A stretch of DNA of 64,000 nt from an uncultured Rickettsiales bacterium (GTDB lineage: Bacteria; Pseudomonadota; Alphaproteobacteria; Rs-D84): assembly GCA_900550495.1 (NCBI GenBank), contig URSJ01000003.1, forward strand, positions 18,227 to 82,226, read 5' to 3'. Both the position numbers and the translations under genes were made by a program. The notes beneath the pieces were generated by a model, which did no database searches, was not told the DNA's origin, and was given only the letters and a program-made list of their open reading frames with translations. This document shows positions 2-27,029 of the stretch, in pieces (the stretch's first letter is position 1; each line of letters begins with the position of its first letter).

Positions 2-1210
2 GCCGCCCGGATTTATATACGTGAAAATGCAACGCAATTACCGTATAACGAAACAGTTATATCGGGTGATAAATTTGCCGACGTGTTGGAATCATATGGT
101 TTGCCGCTGGGGTTTGTTCCGCGCACCGCGTTAGGCCAGGATATTGCCTTGGTTATAAATCGTGATACAGAATCTGTATCGGCGTATCTGCGTATAACAG
201 GTGGCGATTTATCCGATGTGCAAATGGCGGAAATGGTTCGTCGAATTGGCTTTTATGCAGGCAGTGCTGATGGCGCTTTGCTGGTTGGAATTGCACTGGA
301 CGATGCGTATTCCGATGTTGTGCGCCGTAATGATACAGATTTGGATTCGGGCGCGTTTTTATCAGACTTGGATATGGGGGGGCATAATTTGAATAATGCG
401 TCTGATGTGCATATGCAAACTGGTGAATTTGAAACGGGTGAATTTACATCGCTGAGCCTGTTCGGCGTGGAAAGTGGGCGCAAGGTAAAAAATACAATCA
501 AAGAAATTACGGCCGACCGCGCAATATTCCAGAGCAGTGATGGCGCGTCCGCCCTGTCGGTAACCAAGGGCGAATTAAATCTGGCGTCATTGGATGCAAA
601 AACAATTTCGGCATTTGGTGATACGGGGAATTTTACAGCAACGTCTGGGGCAGTATATGATTTTGCAATGACGGCAGGGCGCACGGGATTTACTGGGCCG
701 GCAAATTGGAACGTTCGTGGCAATGTTGTTACCAGCAAGATAAATTTTTCGGTGGAACGTTTAGAAATAAACTCGTTCTTGAATGCGTCCCGCGGCCAGG
801 ACGTTTATATCAATTCTGATTCATTAGAATATTCTGCAAACAGTGGCATCAGCGTTGCAACCATTTCGGCGTCAAATATAACAATGCGTGACCAGACGTC
901 TGACGCTTTATCGCGTGGCGAAACGGGTGACGTGGTGCTTGATATTCGACCGGCCGGGACATCAATATTACCAGATGTTTTAATTACGGGAATTGATAAC
1001 AGTGCTGTTGACATTATCAGCAATCCCAGTGCTGATGATGGCGATATGGTCGCGTGCAAGAATATTATTGACCGATTAGATGGCGTTTATAACCAGAAGT
1101 CGTTGGCCCAGTATATAATATGCCAGTATTATTTTTGGCAGCGTCTGGAACAGCGTATTGATATAAAACAATGTTTGTTAAACGGTGGGGGTAATTGTGA
1201 ACGGAACTAG
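2..1210 (+). CDS. Giant pilin-like/fibre-like paralogue 1, 5'-partial (continues upstream of window)
   Basis: The frame of ORF 83..1210 has no in-frame stop back to nt 2. The protein is Asn/Thr/Gly/Val-rich. Motif LDMGGHNLNN (nt 368-397) is shared with the next two ORFs. Confidence 0.6.
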   Translation, partial: AARIYIRENATQLPYNETVISGDKFADVLESYGLPLGFVPRTALGQDIALVINRDTESVSAYLRITGGDLSDVQMAEMVRRIGFYAGSADGALLVGIALDDAYSDVVRRNDTDLDSGAFLSDLDMGGHNLNNASDVHMQTGEFETGEFTSLSLFGVESGRKVKNTIKEITADRAIFQSSDGASALSVTKGELNLASLDAKTISAFGDTGNFTATSGAVYDFAMTAGRTGFTGPANWNVRGNVVTSKINFSVERLEINSFLNASRGQDVYINSDSLEYSANSGISVATISASNITMRDQTSDALSRGETGDVVLDIRPAGTSILPDVLITGIDNSAVDIISNPSADDGDMVACKNIIDRLDGVYNQKSLAQYIICQYYFWQRLEQRIDIKQCLLNGGGNCERN

Positions 1211-2396
1211 GATTTTTTCCGACAGCGCACGTGGTACCAGCATGACCGAGGTTATATTGGCCATGGCGATTGTTGCGATTGTGACGCCGTTTCTGTATAC
1301 ACAAATCAACGACGCTACCGACAATGTTCGTGATATGGCCACGGCACGTGATATCATTGCGTTGCGTGGGAACGTGCTGAATTATGTTCGCACGAACCAA
1401 GACAAATGGCCAGATGTTGCGCAAATTAAACTGGCCGATGATGAACTGGCAGAAATATCAGAATCAGCAGCGACAGGATTTATTGATAAATATGCTGTAA
1501 ATGGCGCAACGGTTACAGATGTTTATTTGGCATTTGATACAGATTTAGATATGTTGCGCACAACGCGTATCGCGCGCCACATTGGCATGGATGCGGCTGT
1601 TGTGTCTGATGATGGGGTGGCGTATGGTGCGTCGTGGGCGGTTTCTGCACCGGATTTTCGTTCTGGGCAATTGATTTATCGGGTGACGCGTGATGTCGCC
1701 GGAATTGATACATCAAAATATTTGCACAGGACATCATCAGATGACGAAGGTCTAAATGTTATGCAACGTGATTTGAATATGGGCACAAATGGGCTGTTTA
1801 ACATTGGGGCGGCGATTGCAAAGTCTGCGCGGATAAAAAATGTGGCGGCAATATTTGCCGATGCTCATGAAATATCTGCTAATACAATATATTTTCCAAT
1901 GGGCTCGAATATGGACGCGGCTGATGTGAATATTGGTGCAATGCGTGTCACGGGCGACGTTACCGGATTTCGTAATATCACAGCCGACAATATGAATGGC
2001 ACGTCATATACAACGCGTGGGCGTATTGTAACTGATCGCGCGTCGGTTACAGGCTCGGTCAATGTGGCCAAGGATTTTGTCCTGAAATCAGATTCAACCC
2101 GCACGGTCAGTGGTTTTGCCGGAATATCTGCAAATACTGTTCGGACCCCATACGTATCCGCCACAGAAATGACGTTTTTTGAAAATTTTGGTTTAACGGT
2201 GTCGGGCGAATTGCTGATGTCAACGACCGCGCCACTGAAAATCGGGAATTGGACATTTCCATCAACGGTCCCGCCCCAGTTCAGCACATTGACATTTGAA
2301 CGTGCAATAATTCCTGCCGCCCCGGTGCGCAGTGCGTTTGGTGTGCTGATGCAATCTGGGTGGAAATCGGCCATGCCAAAGGATGTGCAACCATGA
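1185..2396 (+). CDS. Giant pilin-like paralogue 2 (degenerate prepilin-type N-terminus)
   Basis: The N-terminus ..SARG/TSMTEVILAMAIVAIVTPFLY has a Gly, a Glu at +5 and a long hydrophobic helix. It carries motif LNMGTNGLFN. Internal ATG 1242 would remove the leader. The stop overlaps the next start (ATGA at 2393-2396). Confidence 0.6.
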   Translation: MGVIVNGTRIFSDSARGTSMTEVILAMAIVAIVTPFLYTQINDATDNVRDMATARDIIALRGNVLNYVRTNQDKWPDVAQIKLADDELAEISESAATGFIDKYAVNGATVTDVYLAFDTDLDMLRTTRIARHIGMDAAVVSDDGVAYGASWAVSAPDFRSGQLIYRVTRDVAGIDTSKYLHRTSSDDEGLNVMQRDLNMGTNGLFNIGAAIAKSARIKNVAAIFADAHEISANTIYFPMGSNMDAADVNIGAMRVTGDVTGFRNITADNMNGTSYTTRGRIVTDRASVTGSVNVAKDFVLKSDSTRTVSGFAGISANTVRTPYVSATEMTFFENFGLTVSGELLMSTTAPLKIGNWTFPSTVPPQFSTLTFERAIIPAAPVRSAFGVLMQSGWKSAMPKDVQP

Positions 2397-3697
2397 TGAA
2401 ATCAAAACGTATTTTTTTGATTGCGCCCCAGCGTGGCGGCATGCTGATGGAATTATTGCTGACGGTTGCACTGGCCGCGATGATAATCCCGTTCTTGTTC
2501 CGATACCAGGCCCGCGCGACGGCGCGCGCCGAAAATATCGTCATTGCGCGCGAAATGGAAAATATACAGACGGCACTGGAACGTTACATCGTCGCCAAAC
2601 GTGAGGATTTATTACGTCCTGTGGGCAAGAATATCACGCGCGTCGAATTGTCTGATTTATACGATTTTGGTTTGAATACAAATCTGGCCGACACAAAGCG
2701 TCAATATCAATTGCGCATTTTAAAGACCGCGCAACGTGGTGGTAAATCAACGTTACAGGGTGTCATTGTCATGTCTGACGCCGATATGACCCCAATGCGT
2801 ACACGCGAAATTGTGTCAACCGGCGCGGGCCAGATTGGGTTTGTTGATAACGCGCGCACATACGGTGCATTTAATTCGTTCCGTACGGATAATATTGATT
2901 TGGGGATTACTGCATCAAGTGGTATTGTTGCCACGACCCCAGTTAACCGTGATAATGCACTATATTTGTGGCGCGTGCCATCAAATGATGCGCGGGATGC
3001 AACGATGCAGGCGGGATTAAACCTGGGGGGGCACGATGTCAAAAACACGACGTTCTTTGATGCCACAAATGCGACAATGAATTCGGGGCTGACAATCGGG
3101 CGTGCGGTTACAACTAATCTGGTATTTCAAACGCGACCAACAATTGACGGGGTGTTCGATGTCAAAAACGCAACGGTCATGGGCACGATGTCATCTGATG
3201 CGCGGTCAATGCAAGTGTCGGGTGGGCTGAAATTATCTGATGTTGGCAAGTTTTCTTTGTTTACGGTAAACGATCTGTGGGTGACGAATTTGACGTTGTC
3301 AGGTCTGTCTATCGGTGGCAGCAGAAAAGCCGCCGTCTTGCATGTAAATGATTCCGTTGATATGACTGGTGGGCGTATTAATGCGATATACGTAACGGTT
3401 GGATTTGCCGGGTCAATAACGCCGCGCCTGGTGGTCAGCAAACGTATCCAGGATTCGGTAAATTCAGATTATTATTGGGATGCGAGTGGTAACACAGCGC
3501 ATTTTATGGACGCAATACTGAAAAATTTGAACGATATGGCAGGGTATGCTGCGCGTGATACGCGTGGCAGCACGGTTTCATACCAACTGTTTGCACCAAT
3601 TGCGACAAACAAAAATGCAACGGTTTCGGATTACCTTAACGCGTTGCGTGAAATCCAGACGCGCGTCACTGCGAAATATAGCCAGTTGAATTTGTAA
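2393..3697 (+). CDS. Giant pilin-like paralogue 3 (degenerate prepilin-type N-terminus)
   Basis: MMKSKRIFLIAPQRGG/MLMELLLTVALAAMIIPFLF has a basic leader, Gly, Glu at about +5 and a hydrophobic helix. It carries motif LNLGGHDVKN. Start set at ATG 2393 (ATGA overlap) rather than track start 2360. Confidence 0.6.
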   Translation: MMKSKRIFLIAPQRGGMLMELLLTVALAAMIIPFLFRYQARATARAENIVIAREMENIQTALERYIVAKREDLLRPVGKNITRVELSDLYDFGLNTNLADTKRQYQLRILKTAQRGGKSTLQGVIVMSDADMTPMRTREIVSTGAGQIGFVDNARTYGAFNSFRTDNIDLGITASSGIVATTPVNRDNALYLWRVPSNDARDATMQAGLNLGGHDVKNTTFFDATNATMNSGLTIGRAVTTNLVFQTRPTIDGVFDVKNATVMGTMSSDARSMQVSGGLKLSDVGKFSLFTVNDLWVTNLTLSGLSIGGSRKAAVLHVNDSVDMTGGRINAIYVTVGFAGSITPRLVVSKRIQDSVNSDYYWDASGNTAHFMDAILKNLNDMAGYAARDTRGSTVSYQLFAPIATNKNATVSDYLNALREIQTRVTAKYSQLNL

Positions 3698-3719
3698 TAA
3701 TTTGTGGTATAAAAAAATC

Positions 3720-4235
3720 ATGAAAATAAAATGCGAATTTTGCAAGACAGAATATTCCGGGCAATTTCCCGCGGCCGTGCCGGTAAAGTGCGCGGTCTGT
3801 GGACATACGTGGGTGCCGCCACGGGCAAACCGGCGTGGGCCGCTGATGGTGTTGTTGGCGTCGTTGTGTGCACTTTTGTCGGCGATTGTGTTCACTATTG
3901 CCGTTGTCGCACGTCACCAGATTGATGCGGCGTCAACGGGGCCGTTGGTTGCACGCGCGACGGCTGTGCGAACTGTTTTAGACGAGGCAGGTAACACTCG
4001 TTTGACAGTTGATGGTATTGTTGAAAATGTATCTGGTGAAATTTACGGTGTTCCAGATTTGATTGTTGTTGCATATGACGCACATGACAATGTTATCGCA
4101 CAACAGAAATTTATGCCGACGGCAACGCTGTTAGATGCGGGCGGACACAGTCAATTTTCGTATACAATGTCAATATCACCAATGGGTGTGCGACGCGTGT
4201 CGGTGCGTTTGGCCACAGGGGGGACAGTAAAATGA
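3720..4235 (+). CDS. ZitP-like zinc-finger membrane protein (MJ0042-type zinc ribbon + TM + DUF3426-like domain)
   Basis: MKIKCEFCKTEY..VKCAVCGHTW gives CxxC-x15-CxxC. A TM segment follows (LMVLLASLCALLSAIVFTIAVV), then a C-terminal beta-rich domain with the DUF3426-like pattern (LTVDGIVENVSG..PDLIVVAYD..LDAGGHSQF). ATG 3720 preferred over TTG 3702. Confidence 0.7.
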   Translation: MKIKCEFCKTEYSGQFPAAVPVKCAVCGHTWVPPRANRRGPLMVLLASLCALLSAIVFTIAVVARHQIDAASTGPLVARATAVRTVLDEAGNTRLTVDGIVENVSGEIYGVPDLIVVAYDAHDNVIAQQKFMPTATLLDAGGHSQFSYTMSISPMGVRRVSVRLATGGTVK

Positions 4236-4696
4236 AAAAAATAATATCAGCAATATTTGCGATGTTTTTGTCGGCGCAGTGCATTGCCGGTGATGCACCC
4301 GTTGTTAAACGAGTCAGTATTTTTTCAACCAGCACAGATTGGCAGGCGGTAACAGGTTTGGACCTGAATCAATACACAGCGACATTTCGTCCTGATTCAA
4401 GATTGATTGGTCGTCAGGGATTGATTTTATATTACTTGGACGCATTTCCGTGTTATGGCCTGGCGTATGGGGTCCGTGTGTGGTTGGGGCCAAACGGTAA
4501 AAATGATGGCGCGTTACAAATCGCATGTGTTGCCGCACCGACCGAAATTCATTTTGCGTATCGCAATGCCACCCGTGACGCAGACCAGGCAACGACCACA
4601 GGAATATTGACGTGTCCGGTAGCCGGTCGCACGCGTGAACTGACAATTGATTTGTCGCGTTGCACCGTTGGACCCGATTGGCCAGAATATAAATAG
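4232..4696 (+). CDS. Secreted protein of unknown function
   Basis: Signal peptide MKKIISAIFAMFLSAQCIAG. ATGA overlap with the preceding gene (4232-4235). The antisense ORF 4314..4781 has no such features. Confidence 0.6.
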   Translation: MKKIISAIFAMFLSAQCIAGDAPVVKRVSIFSTSTDWQAVTGLDLNQYTATFRPDSRLIGRQGLILYYLDAFPCYGLAYGVRVWLGPNGKNDGALQIACVAAPTEIHFAYRNATRDADQATTTGILTCPVAGRTRELTIDLSRCTVGPDWPEYK

Positions 4697-5669: not shown

Positions 5670-5694
5670 GGGGGCGCAGGCCCCCTTTTATTTT
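5670..5694 (+). terminator. Rho-independent terminator after rluD
   Basis: GGGGGC-GCAG-GCCCCC hairpin followed by TTTTATTTT. Confidence 0.8.
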
Positions 5695-5736
5695 GCCCAT
5701 GATTTCACAGATTTTTTCTTTATCAAACATATATTT

Positions 5737-5747
5737 TGTGATATAAT
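5737..5747 (+). promoter_or_regulatory. Extended -10 promoter element TGTGATATAAT
   Basis: TRTGnTATAAT match 27 nt upstream of ATG 5774. GGAG Shine-Dalgarno at 5762-5765. Confidence 0.5.
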
Positions 5748-5773
5748 AAACCATAAATAATGGAGTGGACAGG

Positions 5774-8700
5774 ATGAGTTTTCTGAATAAATCTATCAGT
5801 TTTGTTGCTGTTTTGGCATGCACATCTGCGGCTTTTGCGGTTACCGCACGCCCCAGTGTGATTGGCAATGCAATGCGTCGCATGCCGACGATGACGACAT
5901 CGGCGGGTGTGATTTCTGGCACAACGACGACAACGACATCCAATTTATTGGCAAATGCTGAATGTATTGACGCATACACCTCGTGCCTGAAAGGGGCAGA
6001 TGCGTGTGGCCCGAATTTCGAAGAATGCACAACACGCGTTTTGTTCCACGGCAAAATGCCACAATGTCTGTCCACATTGGCCCAGTGCAACACATCTGGG
6101 ATAAACAGTTTGTTCGGAACGTCCAGCACGACCGCATTGTCCAACGTCGCAACCAAGAATACGTATGGCGAGGTTACAGATTACACATACCCAACCGATG
6201 GCAGTGTCTTGGGCCAGTTGATTATCGGTGCGGCAATCTCTAATAAATATGACACATCGACTTGTGTAAAACGTTACACGTCTTGTTTAAAAAAGGACAA
6301 CGTTTGCGGTGCGGATTTTGAATTGTGCACAACGAACGCCGAATTCAGAAAGCAAATGGTGTATTGCGATTCTACATTGGCGCGGTGCCAATCAGATGGC
6401 AAGATTGAATTATTTGGTTCAACAAACACATCTGTATCGCCCAGCGCGACCAGCCGTATTGGCGAAATGATTTCCGAAGGGGCGTCCTTGGCGGCAATAA
6501 ATGCCGTATCCACTTGCTACAAGGTTGTTGACCAATGTATATTGAATGCATGTGCAGAAAATCCATATAAATGCTATGAAAACGCGTCAACCCAGACTGC
6601 CCAGTTGGTAACTGACATCAATTCCGGTAACGCCGATTCAACTGCGGGCGCGGCAATCACTGTTTCAGACAGTGTCAGCACATCTGCGATTGCGGCATAC
6701 ATCAAGAACTCTTGTATGGATACCATTGGTTCCAACAAATATTGCTATGCAACATTCTTGGGTAATGGCGCAATGCCAACGGCGTCCCAATTAAAGGACG
6801 AAGACAACCAAGAAGAAGTTTATGACGAGGCATATTCGTCCCGAATGAACAGCGCGATGAAGGCCAAAATTGCCGACCTGGTCGATAAATTTGATACCAA
6901 GGCCAAGGCAAAGTGCACCGACACAATCAAAACATGCGCAATGCGTGTTTGCGGTGGCGGTAATGGCGCAGCATGTTATTCCCAGGTATTTGGTGCAACT
7001 GACAAATCAATCAACAACGCGGTCAGCTATCAGGAAATCAAGACTGGATGCGCAGCGGTTGTGAATACTGATTTGTTTTGTAAATATTCGGCAATGAATC
7101 CGAATGCAACAGGGTCATACTCTTATTCATATATAAACAATGATGCATTTGACACATTGTTCCCTGAATACCAGGCTGGTGCCGCCGACCCAATCGGCGT
7201 TATCGCGACATTGAACGCATCATTAGCGAATTCTTACAGTGATGCTGCTATCGCCCAGATGAAAAAACAGTGTCAGGCTGTCGCAACCAGTTGCGTAAAA
7301 TCCATGTGCGGCACCGATTATGTAAATTGTTACCGCAACAGAACAGATATTTATTCCAATCTGACCAGCACGGGCGACAGTTCATTTGATAAATCAATGA
7401 ACAAGGTTGGTGGTGTTCTGGATTACACAATTGTGTTAGGACTGTGTATGGATACGGTTAAAAACGCATCTGTATGCGAACAGCATTTGGCAATTGAACA
7501 AAATAAATTGAAAATCGCAGGTAAATCAAATACAGGTGCGTGGGGCGATGCCACCAGTGTGCGCAGTGGTTGGATTGATGCCGGCGGTGCAACCGCGGTA
7601 ACGGCGGATACTGAAACTGTTCAGGCATACGATGAAAACGGTAATGCGTTGTGTAGTGCCAAAAATGGCGACCAGGGCACATGTAACACTGTTGACGATA
7701 ATGGCAACGTGTTTGATACGCCGGTTATGATTTCTTACACAACATATCTGCAGTCCCAGGCGGCAACATCATTGTTCAAAGATTTAATCTATGACATTGA
7801 AAAAGAAGCCCAGGCGAAATATAACGCCAAGTTGACCAAGGAACAGAATATGTGCATGTCCAGTAATGCTGGCGGTGTATTGGGTAATCGTGATACAGGC
7901 AGCACATATATGTGGGCAAAACTGAAATCAAACAAAGTTCCAAAGAACTATGCGGTCAATGGATTAAAGCCCAGCCAGTTCGCGGCCAGCAATGATTTGT
8001 ATGGTTCGTTCTGCCGTGTGCGTGTGACCTTGCAATCTGATGACAAACGTATCCAGGATACAATTAGAAAAGGCACAGATTGGTCTGTTGCATACTTTGC
8101 CGTCGGTGACAGTTTTACCTGTGGCAGTTGGATACCCCGCGATGCATTGGAAAAGATTGCCAATGCGGTCGCAGATAATGCAACCGCAGACAAGGCCGCA
8201 TCTCAATCCAGAACGCGTGGTTGGTTGACGGCGTTGGGCGTGCTTGGGTTCGGTGCTGGTGGCGCAGTCTTGGGCAGCAATATTCAAAGTGGTAAAGCCT
8301 TGGGTAGTCTGACAGGATTGAACAGTAACAAGGATACAAACACAGAAAGATTTATCAAAATCTGTGAAGACAGAGCCAAAACTGCTATGACTTCGGGCAT
8401 CAGCAAAGATGCACAAATTACTGCGGCTAACGAGGCAATAGTCGCAGCCAGCAGATTGGATTTAGATACCACTGATGCAGCAAGTCGTGTTGACGCACTT
8501 AGTAAAAAAACAAGTAGTTACGATAAAGAATCTTCCGCTTTAAGCACGGCCATGAGAAATCTGTCTTTATCGTGCAGTAAAAAAGACAGCGACGATAACA
8601 ATGATAACGAAAAGAAAAACAATACATTGTTGGGCACATCCATTGGCACAGTTGTGAGCAGTGTTGCCGGTGGTATCTTGATTAATAAATTGGTCGGCGA

Positions 8701-8842
8701 TATCCAGAAAACTAGCCTGGATTCTGCACAAAAGGCTGCATACGAAGAATGGATGAATAACGTCGGTCGTCATATTTCCTGCTATGTCGGTGGTGACGAG
8801 GCCGGTGAATACGGTGACATAATTACCACCAGCATTGAATAA
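5774..8842 (+). CDS. Giant secreted Cys-rich (CX6C-module) protein with two C-terminal Gly-rich hydrophobic segments
   Basis: Signal peptide MSFLNKSISFVAVLACTSAAFA. Many C-x6-C-x3-5-C modules. A ~52-aa module is duplicated exactly 100 aa apart (nt 5963-6418). Hydrophobic segments at ~8219-8285 and ~8628-8699. Confidence 0.75.
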   Translation: MSFLNKSISFVAVLACTSAAFAVTARPSVIGNAMRRMPTMTTSAGVISGTTTTTTSNLLANAECIDAYTSCLKGADACGPNFEECTTRVLFHGKMPQCLSTLAQCNTSGINSLFGTSSTTALSNVATKNTYGEVTDYTYPTDGSVLGQLIIGAAISNKYDTSTCVKRYTSCLKKDNVCGADFELCTTNAEFRKQMVYCDSTLARCQSDGKIELFGSTNTSVSPSATSRIGEMISEGASLAAINAVSTCYKVVDQCILNACAENPYKCYENASTQTAQLVTDINSGNADSTAGAAITVSDSVSTSAIAAYIKNSCMDTIGSNKYCYATFLGNGAMPTASQLKDEDNQEEVYDEAYSSRMNSAMKAKIADLVDKFDTKAKAKCTDTIKTCAMRVCGGGNGAACYSQVFGATDKSINNAVSYQEIKTGCAAVVNTDLFCKYSAMNPNATGSYSYSYINNDAFDTLFPEYQAGAADPIGVIATLNASLANSYSDAAIAQMKKQCQAVATSCVKSMCGTDYVNCYRNRTDIYSNLTSTGDSSFDKSMNKVGGVLDYTIVLGLCMDTVKNASVCEQHLAIEQNKLKIAGKSNTGAWGDATSVRSGWIDAGGATAVTADTETVQAYDENGNALCSAKNGDQGTCNTVDDNGNVFDTPVMISYTTYLQSQAATSLFKDLIYDIEKEAQAKYNAKLTKEQNMCMSSNAGGVLGNRDTGSTYMWAKLKSNKVPKNYAVNGLKPSQFAASNDLYGSFCRVRVTLQSDDKRIQDTIRKGTDWSVAYFAVGDSFTCGSWIPRDALEKIANAVADNATADKAASQSRTRGWLTALGVLGFGAGGAVLGSNIQSGKALGSLTGLNSNKDTNTERFIKICEDRAKTAMTSGISKDAQITAANEAIVAASRLDLDTTDAASRVDALSKKTSSYDKESSALSTAMRNLSLSCSKKDSDDNNDNEKKNNTLLGTSIGTVVSSVAGGILINKLVGDIQKTSLDSAQKAAYEEWMNNVGRHISCYVGGDEAGEYGDIITTSIE

Positions 8843-8867
8843 AAAACGCCCCCCCGGGGCGTTTTTT
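8841..8867. terminator. Bidirectional rho-independent terminator
   Basis: AAAAAACGCCCC-CCC-GGGGCGTTTTTT. Confidence 0.8.
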
Positions 8868-8868: not shown

Positions 8869-8950
8869 AGTGAGAGAGTGAGAGAGTGAGAAAGTGATAG
8901 AGTGATTCAGTGATTTAGTGATAGAGTGATAAAGTGACAGAGTGATATAG
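8869..8950 (+). repeat. Tandem octamer array (AGTGAnnn) x10
   Basis: Strict 8-bp period: agtgagag agtgagag agtgagaa agtgatag agtgattc agtgattt agtgatag agtgataa agtgacag agtgatat. Confidence 0.9.
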
Positions 8951-8964
8951 TTTTAGAATAAAAA

Positions 8965-9005
8965 ACTTAAAAACTTGTCATTCCTGCGCAGGCAGGAATA
9001 GGGTC
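8965..9005 (+). repeat. Left terminal inverted repeat of GIY-YIG cassette
   Basis: acttaaaaacttgtcattcctgcgcaggcaggaatagggtc is the reverse complement of 9419-9459 except for about one position. Confidence 0.85.
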
Positions 9006-9049
9006 TTTAAAACCTTGTGTTGTGGTGCACGTTTTTATATACTGACCTT

Positions 9050-9370
9050 ATGCCAGGACATAACTATTGGGTATATATACTGTTTGACAAACCGGCCGGT
9101 GCAACATACATTGGTGTGACCAATGACCTGAAACGTCGTGTCTTTGAACACAAGATGGAATTGATACCCGGTTTTACCCAAGATAAACATATCCATAACC
9201 TGGGCTACTTTGAAGAATACAAATACATAGACAAAGCGATTGCGCGTGAAAAGGCGTTAAAGAAATGGAAACGTGCATGGAAGTATAAACTGATAGAAAC
9301 GATGAATCCCCATTGGCACGATTTGGCGTCTGACATAGACGAATATATCGCACGTATACAGCACGACTAA
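9050..9370 (+). CDS. GIY-YIG nuclease superfamily protein (small stand-alone type)
   Basis: YWVYILFDKPAGATYIGVTNDLKRRVFEH provides the GIY..YIG..R..EH motifs, with ..REKALKKW.. downstream. Start set at ATG 9050. Confidence 0.8.
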   Translation: MPGHNYWVYILFDKPAGATYIGVTNDLKRRVFEHKMELIPGFTQDKHIHNLGYFEEYKYIDKAIAREKALKKWKRAWKYKLIETMNPHWHDLASDIDEYIARIQHD

Positions 9371-9418
9371 GGACGCCGCGATTGTGTGGGTATGGCTCGC
9401 GTTCGCTCGCACTGCACG

Positions 9419-9459
9419 GTCCCTATTCCTGCCTGCGCAGGAATGACAAGTTTTTAAGT
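9419..9459 (-). repeat. Right terminal inverted repeat of GIY-YIG cassette
   Basis: gtccctattcctgcctgcgcaggaatgacaagtttttaagt. Confidence 0.85.
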
Positions 9460-9475
9460 TTTCTGTTCTTAAACT

Positions 9476-9539
9476 AAATCACTATATCACTTTGTCACTT
9501 TCTCACTATATCACTCTCTCACTCTATCACTTTGTCACT
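9476..9539 (-). repeat. Tandem octamer array (nnnTCACT) x8, inverted copy of the AGTGAnnn array
   Basis: aaatcact atatcact ttgtcact ttctcact atatcact ctctcact ctatcact ttgtcact. Confidence 0.9.
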
Positions 9540-9563
9540 AAAAAAAACCGCCCTGGGCGGTTT
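9540..9563 (-). terminator. Rho-independent terminator of the 9564..10793 gene
   Basis: AAAAAAACCGCCC-T-GGGCGGTTTTT directly abuts the stop codon. Confidence 0.75.
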
Positions 9564-14364: not shown

Positions 14365-17118
<2,754 letters not shown>

Positions 17119-17412: not shown

Positions 17413-19216
17413 TTTAAGAAAAACTTTACAAAATGAACAAAAGTTTACAAAAAACATTGCAAAATGATTTTGTAAAGATTATGATATGAAAAAGGGTTGG
17501 CGTATGGAAGTGTCTTATGAATATTTGAGAGAAATGATTGGTTCAAAAGAAACGTTGTTTGTTGAATGGAAGTCAGACGATAACAACACCTTTAATGATT
17601 CTGTCTTGGTAAATTCATGTGTAGCATTGGCAAATGCAGAGGGGGGACAGCTGTTTATAGGTATAAGAGATTGTACTGGAGAAATAATAGGAAGTAAAAA
17701 AGCTCAGTTAAATAATGCTAATGAAAGAGCTTTGGAAGGATTGATTCGTTCTAGAACGATGCCAAATTTAAATGTTGATGTCATGTTTTTAAATTTACCT
17801 GACGGAAAAATAATCGTGAGAGTTGTTGTCCCTAAGGCCATTACAGTGATCGGAACAACAGATGGCAGATATTTAAAACGAGAAATTCTGCCAAGTGGTG
17901 AACCCAGTAACAAGCCAATGACACCAGATGAAATTTTTAGAAATACTACGAGTATTGGTTTTGTTGATCTATCTGCAAATATCATGTCAGGATTACATAT
18001 GGATGATATTGATATTGAATTAGTAGAAAATAGCATACGAGATGTTTTGAAAAAAGATTTGAAAGAGGAAGAAATCGCTATTTTTTCACAAGAACCGATA
18101 AATGTTTTAAAAACTTTGGGATTGGTGAATTCTGACAATATACCAAATATAGCCGCGGTGTTGTTGTTTGGAAAAGAGGAATCTTTGAAGGAAAAATTTC
18201 CAAATCATTTTGTCCAATATCAGGTCTTTGGATCGCAAGGAGAAGTGTTAAAAAATGAAAAATATTCGTTACCTATCATCAAGTTGTTGCCAAAGTTATT
18301 GGTAATGCCGGAGTTATTGAAAAATACAGATGAGTTTTTAGTAAATGCTCAAAGTCTGGTTGTACCTGAATATGCTCCTGATGCGATAAGAGAAGCCTTT
18401 GCAAACGCTATAGTCCACAGAGATTATAGTTTGTATTCAGGAATTCAGATACAAGTATTTAACGATGAATTAAACATTACAAGTGCAGGAGGTTTTGTGA
18501 AGGGGGTTTCTTTACAAAATTTGTTACGTACGCCTCCTATACCACGGAATCGCCGTTTGGCAGATGCCATGAAAGCGTTAAAGCTGGTCGAAACATCAGG
18601 TAGGGGAATAGATAAAATATATTACTTTCAAGCAAAGTATGGACGCCCCGCGCCAGACTATTCCGCATCAACTGAGAACCATGTTATTGTCAATATCTGT
18701 GGAGGAAAGGCAAATTTAGATTTTTGTAAATTTGTCTTTAGCATTAGTGACGAAATACATTTGTTTGATATGTTAATTTTAAATTACTTGTTTTATCAGC
18801 GTAGTGCAACAATGGCGCAACTGGCGTCTCTTGTCCAGTCATCAGAAATGGAGGTTCGTAGAATAACTCGAAGGTTGCTAGAAAAGAATTTGATAGAAGT
18901 GGTAGATGAAGGTAATCCTTTGTTTTTTTTAAAGGGTATGGCACCAAAGAATAAAATACGTTTAAGGGATAGTAATATTTCTGAGTATGAAAATAGTATC
19001 CAAAATTTATTGAAAGAGCATGATAAATTAAGTAGAAATGATATTGCAAAGTATATAGGTTTGTCTCCTGCTCAAACATATAGAGTATTGCTAAAAATGC
19101 AAGCGAGTGGCAAGGTTGTTATGACCGGGTATCGTTGGAAAGCGCAACAAATCTTTTTATAATCTTTTTAATATGATTTTTATAAAGATTTCTTAGAAAA
19201 ATAAAGATGCGCATCT
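17413..19216. mobile_element. More AT-rich insertion between the 97-bp direct repeats (no recognisable mobility gene)
   Basis: The segment is bounded by the duplicated 5S-3'end/terminator sequence, looks more AT-rich than its flanks, and carries a single ORF. Confidence 0.5.
17504..19162 (+). CDS. Schlafen/AlbA_2 (divergent AAA) + HATPase_c_4-type putative DNA-binding ATPase/regulator (RecG-C-terminal-like family)
   Basis: ETLFVEWKS..VALANAEGGQLFIGIRD..GEIIG (AlbA_2 pattern). IREAFANAIVHRDYS..ITSAGGF..PRNRRLADAM..ETSGRGIDKIY (HATPase_c_4 pattern). C-terminal wHTH-like region. Start ATG 17504 has AAGGG upstream; track start 17486 is also possible. Confidence 0.75.
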   Translation: MEVSYEYLREMIGSKETLFVEWKSDDNNTFNDSVLVNSCVALANAEGGQLFIGIRDCTGEIIGSKKAQLNNANERALEGLIRSRTMPNLNVDVMFLNLPDGKIIVRVVVPKAITVIGTTDGRYLKREILPSGEPSNKPMTPDEIFRNTTSIGFVDLSANIMSGLHMDDIDIELVENSIRDVLKKDLKEEEIAIFSQEPINVLKTLGLVNSDNIPNIAAVLLFGKEESLKEKFPNHFVQYQVFGSQGEVLKNEKYSLPIIKLLPKLLVMPELLKNTDEFLVNAQSLVVPEYAPDAIREAFANAIVHRDYSLYSGIQIQVFNDELNITSAGGFVKGVSLQNLLRTPPIPRNRRLADAMKALKLVETSGRGIDKIYYFQAKYGRPAPDYSASTENHVIVNICGGKANLDFCKFVFSISDEIHLFDMLILNYLFYQRSATMAQLASLVQSSEMEVRRITRRLLEKNLIEVVDEGNPLFFLKGMAPKNKIRLRDSNISEYENSIQNLLKEHDKLSRNDIAKYIGLSPAQTYRVLLKMQASGKVVMTGYRWKAQQIFL

Positions 19217-19313
19217 TCGCCAGAATAAATCCAGTCTTGTTCCACATAGCCTTGGCGAAGTGGAATAGATATAAAAACCGAAATTTGACCGCCCACGTGG
19301 CGGTTTTTTGTTT
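19217..19313 (+). repeat. 97-bp direct repeat, copy 2
   Basis: See 17316-17412. Preceded by the 14-bp palindrome aagatgcgcatctt (19204-19217). Confidence 0.95.
19287..19313 (+). terminator. Duplicate copy of the rrn terminator
   Basis: Same hairpin and T-tract as 17386-17412. Confidence 0.75.
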
Positions 19314-19345
19314 GCCATTTGCGTGGTGCATGGTAAAATGTCAGT

Positions 19346-20185
19346 ATGAAAAAAATGGATGATAATTTTCGTGGCACGCGGGGCAGTTTGCCACCACAAC
19401 TGTTTAAATATATTGATATGTCAAGAATATCTCAGACGACGACAAAGTTTGTAGAGTATATGAATAAATTGGCAGATACGTTTCATCAAAATGTTAATCA
19501 TGATGATGCGTTTGCTAGCATTAGAAATACAAAATTGAATGCCCCCGACTTGTTTGGTCAATGTGTCAAATTGCGCTATATTGACAGTGGTATAAGTGGC
19601 AGCGTATATGAAATGCGCATCGGAGACCAATGTTTTGCGTTCAAGATAAACCGTTCATCGTATTCGGACATCAGTGAATTGGAAACAATGCATTTCCAGA
19701 AAAAGGCGCGAAATTTATTAAATAAAATTTATATCGGTTCTACATTTGAATATGAAGGCAAAGTGTATTCGTGGTTATTGATGGATTATGTAGCCGCATC
19801 TAGTCAAGACACGTTTGATTTAGTGCGAGAGCGACTGTATTATGCAAATTTGACCAAGGGTTTGGTCTATGAAGACGTGTCCGAAGATAACCTGAGAAAT
19901 GGCAAGATTATTGACCGTGGCAATATGTGGCAACGTAAAATTCCTCTGGGGCGGACCGAAATAGACTTGGTCAAGAAACTGGTTTATGCCATGCGCACAG
20001 ATGATATGGTCGCGTTCGAGATATTGACATCACATGCGTTAACGTCATATCCGAAGGTTATAAATTACCTTACGATGTCGATGATGAATTTGCTGGGTGA
20101 AACGCCGGCCCGATTTAAAAAGTTCCGCGTCGTAATTTTTGATAAATCTAATATTATCAAGCAGGCAAAACACGCCGGCCGTTAA
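19346..20185 (+). CDS. Minimal protein-kinase-like fold protein
   Basis: Gly-loop IDSGISGSVY, Lys in CFAFKI, hinge LLMDYV, catalytic-loop-like YEDVSEDN (D-x4-N), DFG-like IIDRG. Confidence 0.55.
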   Translation: MKKMDDNFRGTRGSLPPQLFKYIDMSRISQTTTKFVEYMNKLADTFHQNVNHDDAFASIRNTKLNAPDLFGQCVKLRYIDSGISGSVYEMRIGDQCFAFKINRSSYSDISELETMHFQKKARNLLNKIYIGSTFEYEGKVYSWLLMDYVAASSQDTFDLVRERLYYANLTKGLVYEDVSEDNLRNGKIIDRGNMWQRKIPLGRTEIDLVKKLVYAMRTDDMVAFEILTSHALTSYPKVINYLTMSMMNLLGETPARFKKFRVVIFDKSNIIKQAKHAGR

Positions 20186-24959: not shown

Positions 24960-27029
24960 ATGAAAAGCCGTAACATTGCAGATTGCTGCAAAAATGCTGT
25001 CGGAACAGTTTTCTTGTTGGCTGGCGCATTTTTTGTTTGTTCGACATTGTTATCAATACGCGCGGTATTTGCTGACCCAATTGCGCCGACTGCGGGTGCA
25101 ACGGTGACGGCACAATCGCCACGCACAATCGCCGCATCGCGTCGCGCAACATCGAACGTTGTGTCGCGTGGCACGACCGCAACACCGTCGGCAAACGTCG
25201 GGCGCAATGTTTCGTCGCGTACCATGGTGACCAGTCCGCGCACAACCACTGCCGCGACATCTCGTGGCGTTGTGTCCCGTGCAACTGGTACGTCGCGCAC
25301 AACCACAACATCGCGTAACGTTCGTGCCCGCACCGCAACATCAAGCCAGGCACGCATATCTTTGCAGGGCAGTGCAATTCGTGGCAGCAAGAAATCATCG
25401 CCCACGACATACACATACCTGGCGAATAAACTGTATACCGGCAACTATTCAAACATCATTGATTCAACAACTGGTCTAATTTCAGCCGATGCATACAACA
25501 ACTGTATGGAATCCTATTACACATGTATGGATGAAATCTGCACCGCGCGTAACACGGCGCAGCGTCGTTGTGCATGTGCAGGTCGTGTCAAGGCCTTTGC
25601 CGAAGCGGAAACAGCATTGGAATCAGCAAACGAAGAATTGATAAAAGTGTCTGGTGAATTGGCACTGTTGATTGCGAACAAGGGCAAGGATGTATCTGAT
25701 GCATTCCAGTTGACCGATGCAGAAAAGGTTATGAACTGTGTTTCGTGGCAGGAAGTGACCCAGAAATACGGAACTAATTCTGAACAAGCTATTGCGTGGT
25801 GCAATAACCACTCTATTTATGGCGAAAATGGGAATAAATTGTCCACGTGTGCAAAGCCGTCATATTGCACTGTATCGGGTAATAACTTTGGGTTCGATAT
25901 TGCTAATATTGATGGTTCTTCCAGTGATATTTTGGCGTCACTGCAATCATGGGCAGACGCCAAGGAAAATACATTGACAATTTTGACCGATGATACGGAC
26001 AATTTGACCAGTGCGTTTGACAATCTGTCAAATGTTGTTTCTGGGTTGGCTGGGATTGACGGCGCATTGAGTGACAGTAATAGTTTAAAAGATTCGTTGG
26101 CCCAAACATGGGGATATGAATTGTTTGAATACGCGCACAATAATGTTTGTAACCGCGTATTGGATTCCTGCTTTAATGGCATATACGAGGCGTGCGGAAC
26201 TCCGCCGTCGTCTGGTCGTAAATGTGGTAACGGTGCGTCCCAGTGTCCGTATAATTACAACAGTTATATCAGCGTATCCAATACCGGCACGTATGAACTG
26301 AATTTTATTACGGCAAATTCTGGATATACTGCGTCAAACAGCGCGACTTGTTTTGGATACACTTCATCGTCGGGCGATCCTTATTCAACGTTGCGTGGAC
26401 CTGTGGCTGATGCGCGTCGCAGTATTATGCAAAAGTATGCGCTGGACGCAAACGCAGATTGTGATTCATACGGCGAACAGTTGCGCAAAACAGCCCAGAA
26501 TATAGGCTATCAAAAGGTTGCCGCGCAACAGGCTTTGCAACAAAAACGTTTAGAATTTGTAACCGAAGAAAAGACATCGGTGTTGAATGCCGCGGTTGCA
26601 GCAGGAACGAATTTCAACGAATGTATCAGCGAAATTTACGACTGTTATGAAACCCAGGCAAAGTCAAATGCATCATGGACAACTGCGCGTATCAGAACAT
26701 ATTGCGCCCAGATTGCGAATGTTCCGCATTGCTATGAAGAAATGATTTGCAATCCGTCGAATTCGCCATTCAAGGCCGTTATAGACAAGGCTGATAATGC
26801 CCAGTGCAAGAATACCGTGGATTATACAACCAATACGTGCCGCAATGTTGTTACATTGAACGATATTTTGAATGGCACAGGTGCGACCGAGGCTGTTGAA
26901 TGCAAATTTGGCGATGGCCAGACGTGTGATTCTGCGGCAATGCGCCAGAAATGTTTGTTGGACGCAATCGGAACCGATGGCACCAATACAAATAAAAATG
27001 TTTTACAGACTTGGAAAAAGTCAGAGTAA
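24960..27029 (+). CDS. Secreted protein: Arg/Ser/Thr-rich low-complexity region + CX6C modules + coiled-coil-like segments
   Basis: Signal-anchor/signal peptide ..LLSIRAVFA. R/S/T-rich region at nt 25116-25385 with repeated VVSR-like motifs. Module CMESYYTCMDEIC..RRCAC from nt 25503 is homologous to the 28051 gene. Confidence 0.75.
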   Translation: MKSRNIADCCKNAVGTVFLLAGAFFVCSTLLSIRAVFADPIAPTAGATVTAQSPRTIAASRRATSNVVSRGTTATPSANVGRNVSSRTMVTSPRTTTAATSRGVVSRATGTSRTTTTSRNVRARTATSSQARISLQGSAIRGSKKSSPTTYTYLANKLYTGNYSNIIDSTTGLISADAYNNCMESYYTCMDEICTARNTAQRRCACAGRVKAFAEAETALESANEELIKVSGELALLIANKGKDVSDAFQLTDAEKVMNCVSWQEVTQKYGTNSEQAIAWCNNHSIYGENGNKLSTCAKPSYCTVSGNNFGFDIANIDGSSSDILASLQSWADAKENTLTILTDDTDNLTSAFDNLSNVVSGLAGIDGALSDSNSLKDSLAQTWGYELFEYAHNNVCNRVLDSCFNGIYEACGTPPSSGRKCGNGASQCPYNYNSYISVSNTGTYELNFITANSGYTASNSATCFGYTSSSGDPYSTLRGPVADARRSIMQKYALDANADCDSYGEQLRKTAQNIGYQKVAAQQALQQKRLEFVTEEKTSVLNAAVAAGTNFNECISEIYDCYETQAKSNASWTTARIRTYCAQIANVPHCYEEMICNPSNSPFKAVIDKADNAQCKNTVDYTTNTCRNVVTLNDILNGTGATEAVECKFGDGQTCDSAAMRQKCLLDAIGTDGTNTNKNVLQTWKKSE

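What the first reader, a model, noticed from the sequence alone, without database searches (positions are those of the whole stretch)
5774..8842. 1022-aa secreted Cys-rich protein built from CX6C modules, with an exact 100-aa-spaced internal duplication and a C-terminal double Gly-zipper-like anchor
After a signal peptide the protein contains more than ten C-x6-C-x3-5-C units (CIDAYTSC..C, CVKRYTSC..C, CYKVVDQC..C, CTDTIKTC..C, CQAVATSC..C). One block of about 52 aa, C(I/V)xxYTSCLKxxxxCGxxFExCTTxxxFxxxMxxCxSTLAxCxxxGxxxLFG, occurs twice exactly 100 residues apart (nt 5963-6418). The C-terminus carries two Gly-rich hydrophobic segments (WLTALGVLGFGAGGAVLG and LLGTSIGTVVSSVAGGILINKLVG). I do not recognise this family. 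The same C-x3-Y-x2-C-x4/5-C signature recurs in three other large secreted proteins in the window.
Basis: seen in the sequence. Interest (0 to 1): 0.65.

Follow-up and report, generated by a model that had tools for sequence, protein, structure and literature searches.

The report
Cysteine-rich envelope protein with hypervariable tip
This gene encodes a large disulfide-rich envelope protein found in nearly all members of an uncultured, tiny-genome group of gut bacteria (Candidatus Enterousia), with no known relatives; almost all of it is strongly conserved, but one small domain flanked by two glycine-zipper segments differs even between strains, as a surface contact or recognition site would.

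Summary
The ORF at 5774-8842 (+) encodes a 1022-aa protein with a signal peptide and 39 Cys. It has 13 C-x6-C pairs, against 1.4 expected by shuffling. A 60-aa block is duplicated exactly 100 residues apart, and there are two C-terminal glycine-zipper segments.

The host is Candidatus Enterousia (order Rs-D84), gut Alphaproteobacteria with genomes under 1 Mb. The family is present in 232 GTDB species representatives and is always labelled hypothetical. It has no Pfam, NCBIfam, PDB-sequence or Foldseek match.

AlphaFold2 gives a confident model. It shows an array of helical repeats (two B blocks, three to four M modules), a beta-rich domain, then zipper 1, a four-helix bundle, zipper 2 and a conserved tail.

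New here: the bundle between the zippers is hypervariable. Its mean pairwise identity is 0.18, against 0.6-0.74 elsewhere; one relative 96-100% identical elsewhere is 56% identical there. It is mosaic between relatives. Its Cys count is even in 89% of 214 relatives. The ectodomain has an odd Cys count and the tail has exactly one.

So the "anchor" is unlikely to be an inner-membrane hairpin with a cytoplasmic loop. My preferred reading is an outer-membrane glycine-zipper hairpin displaying a variable surface domain on a conserved periplasmic rod. Function is unproven. Only one of the three other proteins demonstrably shares the module.

The parts
5720..5747 (+). Sigma-70-type promoter: TTATCA, 16-nt spacer, TATAAT, with an extended -10 (TGn).
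   Evidence: Consensus scan, 10 of 12 matches with TG before the -10. It lies after the rluD terminator at 5670-5685. This is a consensus match only.
5762..5765 (+). Shine-Dalgarno GGAG, 8 nt upstream of the ATG.
   Evidence: Read from the sequence.
5774..8842 (+). CDS of the 1022-aa Cys-rich envelope protein, stop codon included.
   Evidence: More than 979 relatives were found.
5774..5839 (+). Sec signal peptide, aa 1-22, with a probable cleavage at AFA|V.
   Evidence: Hydrophobic N-terminus. An A-x-A motif is conserved before the TARPSV motif. Cys16 is conserved in only 3% of relatives, so this is not a lipobox.
5840..5896 (+). Conserved linear motif at the mature N-terminus, aa 23-41: x-T-A-R-P-S-V ... 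R-M-P-T-M.
   Evidence: Conserved down to relatives of 23-30% identity. R26, R36 and P38 are each at least 90% conserved. AF2 models it as disordered. It is unique within the window.
5945..6127 (+). Block B1, aa 58-118, with six Cys (C64-C105).
   Evidence: It is absent in about 35% of full-length relatives.
6245..6427 (+). Block B2, aa 158-218, with six Cys (C164-C205). This is the ancestral copy.
   Evidence: Its Cys are 97-100% conserved. hhalign of B1 against B2 gives P = 99.7%.
6455..7519 (+). Three diverged helical modules, M1 (aa 228-330), M2 (360-442) and M3 (476-582). Each has C-x6-C-x4-C-x6/7-C followed by C-x9-C.
   Evidence: hhalign between the modules gives P = 74-88% for M1-M3 and M2-M3 and 25% for M1-M2. 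Cross-hits between the module HMMs have E from 6e-5 to 1e-3. All Cys are invariant. AF2 models them as helical with pLDDT about 90.
7559..8209 (+). Module M4 (aa 596-700: beta hairpins plus a 42-residue helix) and the beta-rich C-terminal ectodomain (aa 701-812), which carries the unpaired-looking trio C694, C747 and C783.
   Evidence: AF2 secondary structure and pLDDT. Conservation.
8219..8317 (+). Glycine zipper 1, aa 816-848: GxxxGxxxGxxxG at 822-834, then GxxxGxxxG at 840-848.
   Evidence: Per-column Gly frequencies of 75-96%. AF2 pLDDT is below 50.
8324..8623 (+). Hypervariable four-helix-bundle domain (called LOOP here), aa 851-950, with C864 and C934.
   Evidence: Mean pairwise identity is 0.18. 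There is a mosaic nucleotide-identity profile and strain-level divergence. The Cys count is even-biased. AF2 gives four helices with pLDDT 87-96.
8624..8698 (+). Glycine zipper 2, aa 951-975: GxxxGxxxSxxxG.
   Evidence: AF2 pLDDT is below 50.
8699..8839 (+). Conserved C-terminal tail, aa 976-1022: a helix followed by three short strands, with invariant C1003.
   Evidence: There is exactly one Cys in 234 of 237 relatives. pLDDT is 72-91.
8841..8867 (+). Intrinsic terminator-like hairpin: AAAAAACGCCCCCCCGGGGCGTTTTTT.
   Evidence: Read from the sequence. It overlaps the stop codon.

Best explanation
This is a core, single-copy, monocistronic gene of Candidatus Enterousia / order Rs-D84. It encodes a Sec-exported protein that is folded oxidatively outside the cytoplasm.

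Most of the protein (aa ~57-812) is a conserved array of disulfide-stapled helical repeats ending in a beta-rich domain. At the C-terminus, two glycine-zipper helices bracket a folded helical-bundle domain that is hypervariable and is exchanged between lineages. The conserved tail that follows returns to the ectodomain and is probably locked to it by a disulfide through C1003.

My preferred topology is inferred, not shown. The two zippers form an alpha-helical hairpin in the outer membrane, as in SlyB-type glycine-zipper proteins. The variable bundle is then exposed on the cell surface. The conserved rod, its N-terminal TARPSV...RMPT motif and the tail stay in the periplasm.

The likely role is a trans-envelope strut whose surface tip mediates, or evades, recognition by partner cells, phages or host antibody. 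The bacterium is predicted to live off other cells.

Shown here: the architecture, the conservation pattern, the hypervariability and mosaicism, and the Cys parity. Inferred: the disulfide connectivity, which membrane is involved, and the function.
For: Gene signals and distribution:
- The gene has a signal peptide and its own promoter, Shine-Dalgarno and terminators.
- The family is found in 232 of 234 matched GTDB species-representative stretches, all Enterousia, Alphaproteobacteria or uncultured Rickettsiales MAGs except one bin labelled Bacteroides fragilis. It forms 237 clusters at 50% identity among 1.84 billion proteins.
- The position after rluD is kept in about 73 of 83 loci.

Structure and disulfides:
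- 36 of 39 Cys are conserved.
- AF2 gives mean pLDDT 78, with the ectodomain mostly above 85. The same architecture appears in a 67%-identical relative.

Hypervariability of the domain between the zippers (LOOP):
- Its mean pairwise identity is 0.18, against 0.60-0.74 for the ectodomain modules. Its dN is 0.29-0.34, against at most 0.04 in the ectodomain modules (0.16 in zipper 1), in the closest pairs.
- Nucleotide identity to L004 and L005 falls from 0.9-0.99 to 0.54-0.76 over aa 801-960. L006 is 0.77-0.90 elsewhere but 0.90-0.93 over aa 841-960.
- P0002 is 96-100% identical elsewhere but 56% identical in the LOOP.
- The LOOP is about 0.2 identical once core identity drops below 0.85.

Cys parity:
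- The LOOP Cys count is 2, 4, 6 or 8 in 75 of 76 diverse relatives and even in 190 of 214.
- The ectodomain count is odd in 212 of 214, and the tail has exactly one Cys in 234 of 237.

Membrane segments:
- K+R residues are not enriched on the loop side of the zippers: 2.8 and 1.9 outside against 1.0 and 2.3 inside.
- The zipper segments have positive approximate insertion free energies in all relatives (medians +4.7 and +3.4 kcal/mol, none below +1). MraY and FtsW segments from the same window reach -3 to +1.
- Outer-membrane glycine-zipper hairpins have precedent in SlyB and YfgH.
- The window encodes TolC-like and PagL proteins, so an outer membrane exists.
- The lineage is predicted to be an obligate symbiont or parasite that lacks standard transporters (PMC12306168).
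Against: - There is no experimental localisation or expression evidence of any kind.
- The protein has no lipobox, and no route is known for inserting a non-lipoprotein alpha-helical hairpin, with a folded 100-300-aa domain, into or across an outer membrane.
- AF2 gives pLDDT below 50 for both zipper segments. I could not obtain coordinates, so no disulfide pair or tail-to-domain contact was checked.
- About 11% of relatives, mainly one clade with a single "TECEN" Cys, have an odd LOOP Cys count.
- The sequences are phylogenetically related, so the parity counts are not independent trials.
- The hydrophobicity scale values were recalled from memory and applied without position weighting.
- Conservation of the rod could also arise from dense packing on the surface rather than a periplasmic location.
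Confidence: 0.45

Rival explanations
1. Surface fibril or secreted contact protein. The whole mature protein is exported beyond the outer membrane, perhaps by the neighbouring pilin-like, T2SS-like gene set. It is held by its conserved N-terminal motif, and the zipper-LOOP-zipper unit sits at the distal tip. There the glycine zippers oligomerise or insert into a partner or host membrane, in the manner of pore-formers or translocators, while the LOOP selects the target.
For: - GxxxG zippers are typical of homo-oligomeric channel formers (Kim et al. 2005, cited).
- There are weak profile hits to the alpha-pore-forming toxin subunits YaxA and XaxA over profile positions 842-1014 (E = 0.07).
- A conserved operon of three pilin-like proteins sits next to the gene in about 73 of 83 loci.
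- The lineage lacks standard transporters and is proposed to take metabolites from other cells.
- The Cys parity is equally consistent with an entirely extracellular location.
Against: - The YaxA and XaxA hits are not significant.
- No secretin or secretion ATPase was seen in the window.
- Synteny with the pilin-like operon is lost in a distant relative, where the gene follows ftsQ-ftsA.
- The sharp switch from strong conservation to hypervariability exactly at the two zippers is more simply explained by a membrane barrier.
Confidence: 0.25
2. Inner-membrane anchor, the simplest reading of the first reader's view. The ectodomain is periplasmic, zipper 1 and zipper 2 are two inner-membrane helices, the LOOP is cytoplasmic, and the tail is periplasmic.
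For: There are two hydrophobic stretches of about 19 residues with Kyte-Doolittle means of 1.4-1.8. The tail Cys parity fits a tail that returns to the periplasm.
Against: - The LOOP Cys count is even in 89% of relatives and ranges over 0-8 with non-conserved positions. This is not expected in a reducing cytoplasm.
- Strain-level hypervariability and mosaicism are not expected of a cytoplasmic loop.
- The positive-inside rule is not obeyed.
- Zipper 1 falls below the hydrophobicity threshold in many relatives.
- The approximate insertion energies are all positive.
Confidence: 0.08
3. The LOOP is merely an unconstrained linker drifting neutrally, and the protein is a conserved periplasmic structural protein with no exposed part.
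For: The LOOP HMM is very weak (17 bits against its own sequence). LOOP length ranges from 73 to 325 aa. dN/dS is below 1 (0.28-0.56).
Against: - AF2 predicts a confident four-helix bundle, pLDDT 87-96. In a relative with an unrelated LOOP sequence, three N-terminal helices and the last helix are again predicted at pLDDT about 73-92, around a low-confidence insertion.
- A domain of at least 73 aa is always retained.
- The Cys come in pairs.
- Synonymous divergence is saturated in the LOOP between otherwise 91-93% identical genes, and is lower than background in another pair. That pattern indicates allele exchange, not local drift.
Confidence: 0.1

Closest known systems
SlyB / YfgH / OsmB / Pcp glycine-zipper 2TM outer-membrane lipoproteins (Pfam PF05433, PF13488 and relatives)
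   Same: They have paired GxxxG-repeat helices of G/A/V/T-rich composition that sit as a hairpin in the outer membrane, attached to a periplasmic domain, and they oligomerise.
   Different: The target has no lipobox and no Pfam match even at E <= 10. Its two zippers are separated by a 73-325-aa folded variable domain rather than a tight turn. Its periplasmic part is a 750-aa Cys-rich helical array.
TraN of F-like conjugative plasmids
   Same: It is an outer-membrane protein with about 22 conserved, disulfide-forming Cys. It has a conserved core plus a variable tip that determines which surface protein of the partner cell is bound, and it is anchored by an amphipathic helix rather than a beta-barrel (PMC9246713). 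This is the best functional analogy for a conserved Cys-rich body carrying a variable recognition tip.
   Different: There is no sequence match, as no Pfam family was hit. TraN is mainly beta-sheet, whereas the target is mainly helical. TraN is plasmid-borne and part of a type IV secretion system. The target is a chromosomal core gene among housekeeping genes.
Helicobacter cysteine-rich proteins (Hcp; Sel1-like repeats)
   Same: They are secreted proteins built from helix-turn-helix repeats, each stapled by a disulfide (from my knowledge of the family).
   Different: Hcp repeats are 36-aa Sel1-like repeats with C-x7-C. No Sel1 hit was found. The target's modules are 60-105 aa with C-x6-C, C-x4-C and C-x9-C spacings.
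Surface proteins with a recombining hypervariable segment flanked by conserved parts (Anaplasma Msp2/P44, Neisseria Opa)
   Same: A conserved frame carries one short, highly diverse, recombining segment, as seen here. The comparison itself rests on my knowledge of those families.
   Different: Those are beta-barrel proteins with variable loops and, for Msp2, silent donor cassettes. No extra LOOP copy exists in this window, and the frame here is helical.
Chlamydial cysteine-rich envelope proteins OmcA and OmcB
   Same: They are abundant Cys-rich, disulfide-linked envelope proteins in a reduced-genome, host-dependent bacterium (from my knowledge).
   Different: There is no homology. The fold and architecture differ. 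Peptidoglycan synthesis genes (MraY, FtsW, MurG) are present in this window, so there is no obvious need for a disulfide-linked substitute wall.

Membership tests
Glycine zipper 2TM / Gly-zipper_Omp families (PF05433, PF13488, PF13441, PF13436) | Match to the family HMM | tested here: not met
   hmmscan against Pfam-A at E <= 10 returned no family for the target. No distant relative matched any of these families either; the only weak, sub-threshold hits were to two other families, C19orf12-like and DUF2076.
Glycine zipper 2TM / Gly-zipper_Omp families | Two adjacent GxxxG-repeat helices joined by a short turn | tested here: not met
   GxxxGxxxGxxxG repeats are present and conserved, but the two main zippers are 73-325 residues apart.
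Glycine zipper 2TM / Gly-zipper_Omp families | N-terminal lipobox, as in the E. coli members, which are outer-membrane lipoproteins | tested here: not met
   Cys16 is conserved in 3% of relatives. The conserved cleavage motif is A-x-A.
Glycine zipper 2TM / Gly-zipper_Omp families | Outer-membrane location | not testable with these tools
   Only indirect arguments are available: Cys parity, hypervariability and hydrophobicity.
TraN (F-type mating-pair stabilisation protein) | Match to the TraN family HMM, and a location within a tra/T4SS operon | tested here: not met
   There was no Pfam or NCBIfam hit. The neighbours are rluD, pilin-like genes and an rRNA operon, with no T4SS genes.
Sel1-like repeat / Helicobacter cysteine-rich proteins | Sel1 repeat HMM match, with a 36-aa period and C-x7-C | tested here: not met
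   There was no Sel1 hit. There is a single C-x7-C, against 13 C-x6-C.
Twin CX9C / CHCH helical-hairpin proteins | Two C-x9-C motifs on antiparallel helices of one hairpin | tested here: not met
   The four C-x9-C pairs (314-324, 426-436, 558-568, 627-637) occur singly. In the M modules each spans a helix-turn-helix junction in the AF2 secondary structure.
ClyA / XaxA / YaxA alpha-pore-forming toxins | Significant sequence or fold similarity to the head, stalk and foot architecture | tested here: not met
   The profile search against PDB gives only E = 0.066-0.076. Foldseek against PDB has no such hit at E <= 0.001.
DGR (diversity-generating retroelement) variable protein | A template repeat near the variable region and a reverse-transcriptase gene | tested here: not met
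   No second copy of the LOOP DNA exists in the 64-kb window. No RT domain was found among the ORFs scanned. The variation includes large indels.

The most novel reading that the evidence does not exclude
A previously unrecognised class of Gram-negative surface-display protein. A non-lipoprotein, alpha-helical glycine-zipper hairpin spans the outer membrane and presents a disulfide-bonded, hypervariable, horizontally exchanged helical-bundle domain on the cell surface. A 750-residue disulfide-stapled helical rod with a conserved N-terminal docking peptide spans the periplasm beneath it. The variable tip would set partner, phage or antibody specificity for an obligate cell-dependent gut alphaproteobacterium.
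Probability: 0.3. Interest if true: 0.85.

Novelty: new variant of a known kind. Interest (0 to 1): 0.66.

Why it matters
Candidatus Enterousia / Rs-D84 bacteria are widespread in human and animal guts. They have genomes under 1 Mb, lack respiration and standard transporters, and are thought to live off other cells, yet nothing is known about how they make contact (PMC12306168).

This protein is one of the few large genes kept in essentially every member, so it must matter to the cell. Its fold has no counterpart in PDB or BFVD. It carries a single sharply bounded domain that differs even between strains and is swapped between lineages. That makes it the obvious candidate for the molecule that other cells, phages or host IgA see.

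If the zipper hairpin really crosses the outer membrane, it would extend the short list of alpha-helical outer-membrane proteins and give a new way of displaying a folded domain. Practically, the variable domain is a ready strain marker for metagenomic tracking, and the conserved rod is a lineage marker.

Tried and rejected
- Pfam and NCBIfam scans of the target at permissive thresholds found nothing. A Pfam scan of ten distant relatives also found nothing.
- PDB sequence and profile searches gave only a designed helical binder (E = 5e-4) and non-significant YaxA/XaxA hits.
- Foldseek of the full AF2 model against PDB and BFVD gave no match at E <= 0.001. The top hits were generic four-helix bundles and coiled coils with TM-scores up to about 0.1 normalised to the query; the bundle hits reach about 0.5 normalised to their own 100-residue length.
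- Lipoprotein reading rejected: Cys16 is not conserved.
- DGR or silent-cassette mechanism for the variable domain rejected for this window: there is no second copy.
- The short proteins that match only the C-terminal 100-200 residues look like fragments or truncated gene calls, not an independent small family.
- The idea that the 689-aa and 418-aa Cys-rich ORFs share the module was not supported by HMM or BLASTP.
- A functional link to the upstream pilin-like operon is not established. Synteny holds within the genus but not in a 25%-identical relative.
- An attempt to scan all 76 alignment members against Pfam in one call exceeded the size limit.
- The last fold search was not spent on the second AF2 model. 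That model (relative P0077) gave only low confidence for the 130-aa insertion in its LOOP.


Full report
OBSERVATION. The ORF is real. It runs from 5774 to 8842 on the + strand and encodes 1022 aa. The ORF listing starts it at a GTG at 5765, but that codon overlaps the GGAG Shine-Dalgarno at 5762-5765. M1 is conserved in at least 90% of relatives, so the ATG at 5774 is the start.

The protein has 39 Cys and 13 C-x6-C pairs. In 20,000 shuffles the mean was 1.4 and the maximum 7. The pattern C-x6-C-x6-C-x6-C-x12-C-x6-C occurs at aa 64-105 and again at 164-205, exactly 100 residues apart, at nt 5963-6418. The copies share 27 of 65 residues and only 54% DNA identity, so the duplication is old. Three further units of C-x6-C-x4-C-x6/7-C followed by C-x9-C lie at 248-324, 381-436 and 500-568, with one more C-x9-C at 627-637.

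Profile-profile comparison confirms that B1 and B2 are homologous (P = 99.7%, E = 1.4e-25). It also shows that M1, M2 and M3 are diverged copies of one module: P = 74% for M1-M3, 88% for M2-M3 and 25% for M1-M2, with HMM cross-hits of 6e-5 to 1e-3.

GENE CONTEXT. The gene looks like its own transcription unit. A terminator (5670-5685) follows rluD. Then come a TTATCA-16-TGnTATAAT promoter (5720-5747), the Shine-Dalgarno, the CDS, and a GC hairpin with a T-run at 8841-8867. These are consensus matches, not proof of expression.

The window also holds an rRNA operon and the housekeeping genes PPDK, UvrD/PcrA, ValS and GyrA. It encodes the cell-wall genes MraY, FtsW and MurG, a PagL-like lipid A deacylase and a TolC-like protein. 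This is therefore a diderm chromosome.

ORGANISM AND DISTRIBUTION. Relatives are numerous: 979 proteins at E <= 1e-3 among the candidates scored, all unnamed or "hypothetical protein", from MAGs labelled Alphaproteobacteria. An exhaustive phmmer search over 1.84 billion cluster representatives finds only 237 clusters, so the family is narrow. A scan of one genome per GTDB species found relatives in 232 of 234 matched stretches. The 80 loci kept are titled Candidatus Enterousia, uncultured Alphaproteobacteria or uncultured Rickettsiales (apart from one bin labelled Bacteroides fragilis), from human, mouse, bird and ruminant guts, and include a circular 958-kb chromosome.

The literature describes Enterousia / order Rs-D84 as uncultured gut bacteria with genomes under 1 Mb. 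They have no TCA cycle, respiration or standard transporters, and are presumed to be obligate symbionts or parasites with many hypothetical membrane proteins (PMC12306168). No paper found mentions this protein.

The arrangement up1-up2-up3-Zn-ribbon-up5-rluD-target is kept in about 73 of 83 loci. A relative at 25% identity instead sits after ftsQ-ftsA. The gene is therefore a vertically inherited core gene, and its linkage to the upstream operon is unproven.

NO KNOWN RELATIVES. Pfam and NCBIfam give nothing, even at E <= 10. Distant family members also give nothing above threshold. PDB sequence and profile searches give only a designed helical binder (5e-4) and non-significant YaxA/XaxA hits (0.07) in the C-terminal region.

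STRUCTURE. AlphaFold2 with a 76-sequence alignment gives mean pLDDT 78, with 410 residues at or above 90. Its features are:
- Residues 1-56 are disordered.
- Residues 57-610 are all-helical.
- Residues 612-785 are beta-rich, with a 42-residue helix.
- A long helix (789-823) runs into zipper 1.
- A confident four-helix bundle (852-939, pLDDT 87-96) lies between the zippers.
- Both zippers are low-confidence.
- The tail (969-1018) is a helix plus three strands at pLDDT 72-91.

Foldseek finds nothing at E <= 0.001 in PDB or BFVD. The best hits are cytochrome-b562-like bundles, presumably matching the small bundle, and coiled coils with TM about 0.1. A second model of a 67%-identical relative (P0077) reproduces the ectodomain. 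Three N-terminal helices and the last helix of its LOOP are again predicted as confident helices, interrupted by a roughly 130-aa low-confidence insertion.

CONSERVATION. 36 of 39 Cys are conserved, and most are invariant across sequences down to 23% identity. Block 1 is absent from about 35% of full-length relatives, including all the most distant ones. Block 2 is universal, so block 1 is the derived copy.

The motif T-A-R-P-S-V...R-M-P-T-M lies directly after the A-x-A signal-peptidase site. It is one of the best-conserved linear features of the whole family although it is modelled as disordered, and it is unique in the window. Its position at the mature N-terminus suggests a docking or attachment peptide. 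I could not say for what.

THE C-TERMINAL UNIT. Both hydrophobic segments are canonical glycine zippers, conserved across 239 sequences. G822, G826, G830 and G834 are 75-96% Gly. A second run lies at G840, G844 and G848. The third runs G954, G958, G962/963, G966. The region between them behaves quite differently from the rest of the protein, in three ways.

(1) Hypervariability.
- Mean pairwise identity among 63 orthologues is 0.18 there, against 0.60-0.74 in the ectodomain modules.
- Per-column conservation collapses at about aa 851 and recovers at about aa 960.
- In the closest pairs, LOOP dN is 0.29-0.34, against at most 0.04 in the ectodomain modules, and LOOP dS is saturated.
- The nucleotide profile is mosaic. 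L004 and L005 are 0.9-0.99 identical to the window except over aa 801-960, where they are 0.54-0.76. L006 is 0.77-0.90 elsewhere but 0.90-0.93 over aa 841-960. Alleles of this domain are therefore exchanged between lineages.
- A near-identical relative (P0002, 96-100% elsewhere) is 56% identical in the LOOP.
- Over 6000 pairs, LOOP identity is about 0.2 as soon as core identity falls below 0.85.
- LOOP length ranges from 73 to 325 aa.
- No second copy of the LOOP DNA lies in the window.

(2) Cys parity.
- In the 76-sequence alignment the LOOP holds 2, 4, 6 or 8 Cys, at non-conserved positions, in 75 sequences. The exception is a truncated fragment.
- In 214 full-length sequences the count is even in 190. 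The odd cases are mainly one clade with a single Cys.
- Meanwhile the ectodomain (aa 27-845) has an odd count in 212 of 214, and the tail has exactly one Cys (invariant C1003) in 234 of 237.
- The simplest reading is that the LOOP Cys pair among themselves and C1003 pairs with the spare ectodomain Cys. That puts the ectodomain, LOOP and tail all in oxidising compartments.

(3) Membrane-segment properties.
- Lys and Arg are not enriched on the loop side.
- Zipper 1 fails a modest hydrophobicity threshold in many relatives.
- A rough translocon-scale estimate is positive for both zippers in every relative, unlike several MraY and FtsW helices from the same window. The scale values were recalled from Hessa et al. 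2005, and the estimate is unweighted and approximate.

TOPOLOGY AND MECHANISM. An inner-membrane hairpin with a cytoplasmic loop fits none of these three observations. Two readings remain.

If both zippers cross one membrane, both of its sides must be oxidising. That means the outer membrane, with the variable bundle outside and the rod and tail in the periplasm. This is the topology of SlyB-type glycine-zipper hairpins, with a domain inserted at the turn. It also explains why hypervariability starts and stops exactly at the zippers.

If the zippers cross nothing, the whole protein is periplasmic or extracellular. The zippers would then be oligomerisation or latent membrane-insertion elements at a distal tip.

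Neither can be settled computationally. The absence of a lipobox or any known insertion route is a real weakness of the first.

In either case the conserved body with a variable, exchanged tip recalls TraN. In TraN a conserved disulfide-rich core carries a variable tip that picks the partner cell's surface protein (PMC9246713). For a bacterium thought to depend on other cells, partner recognition is an attractive role for the tip. Escape from phage or IgA would produce the same signature.

OTHER CYS-RICH PROTEINS. The 788-aa ORF (27997-30363) shares the first half of the B block. The evidence is a domain E of 2e-6, BLASTP 3e-4, and hhalign P = 50%, E = 1.7e-4 over target aa 82-221. Its family is likewise conserved in the lineage, unnamed and without Pfam domains. 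The 689-aa ORF is its paralogue but does not match the target significantly, and nor does the 418-aa ORF. The lineage therefore has several Cys-rich secreted families that are at most distantly related.

VERDICT. The protein founds an undescribed, lineage-restricted family with an unmatched fold. The main new finding is a sharply bounded, recombining hypervariable domain between two conserved glycine zippers. Function and location remain inferences.

Noticed in passing
window 8869-9540: A GIY-YIG ORF (9017-9370, Pfam PF01541 3e-14) is flanked by 119-nt inverted repeats (8885-9003 and 9421-9539, 88% complementary). Each repeat is made of about ten copies of an 8-nt unit (AGTGATAG) plus the stem-loop TATTCCTGCCTGCGCAGGAATG. 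Homologues occur in only 5 of 83 related loci and at different positions. It therefore looks like a small mobile element inserted just after the target's terminator.
   Followed up: partly
window 83-4696: This is a conserved five-gene operon upstream of rluD. Three proteins of about 400-450 aa have prepilin-like N-termini (G|NFLLQ, G|TSMTEV, G|MLMEL) and no Pfam hit. They are followed by a Zn-ribbon/DUF3426-like membrane protein and a small secreted Cys-containing protein. The operon is syntenic with the target in about 73 of 83 loci but not in a distant relative. It may be a pseudopilus or secretion apparatus.
   Followed up: partly
window 24960-27029 and 27997-30363: Two paralogous Cys-rich secreted proteins (29 and 33 Cys) have long Ser/Thr/Arg-rich low-complexity N-terminal regions with repeated (A/G)R(S)V and VVSR motifs. 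The 788-aa family has more than 1200 unnamed relatives in the same lineage.
   Followed up: partly
window 33238-39807: Five consecutive ORFs of about 390-480 aa have no Pfam match (four on the - strand, one on the +). Many genes of this reduced genome are unannotatable.
   Followed up: no
window 14368-17117: The 23S rRNA match spans only 2750 nt for model positions 1-2925, so it is shorter than usual. The 16S-23S spacer carries tRNA-Ile, and no tRNA-Ala was detected.
   Followed up: no
window 17486-19162: Directly after the rRNA operon lies a Schlafen/AlbA_2 + HATPase_c_4 + wHTH protein in a region of low GC (0.36 at 18001-20000). It is possibly a foreign or defence-related insertion.
   Followed up: no
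L056:6001-15252: In one relative the target gene is inverted relative to the rluD/pilin-like block but remains adjacent to it. This is consistent with an in-place inversion of the target gene alone.
   Followed up: no
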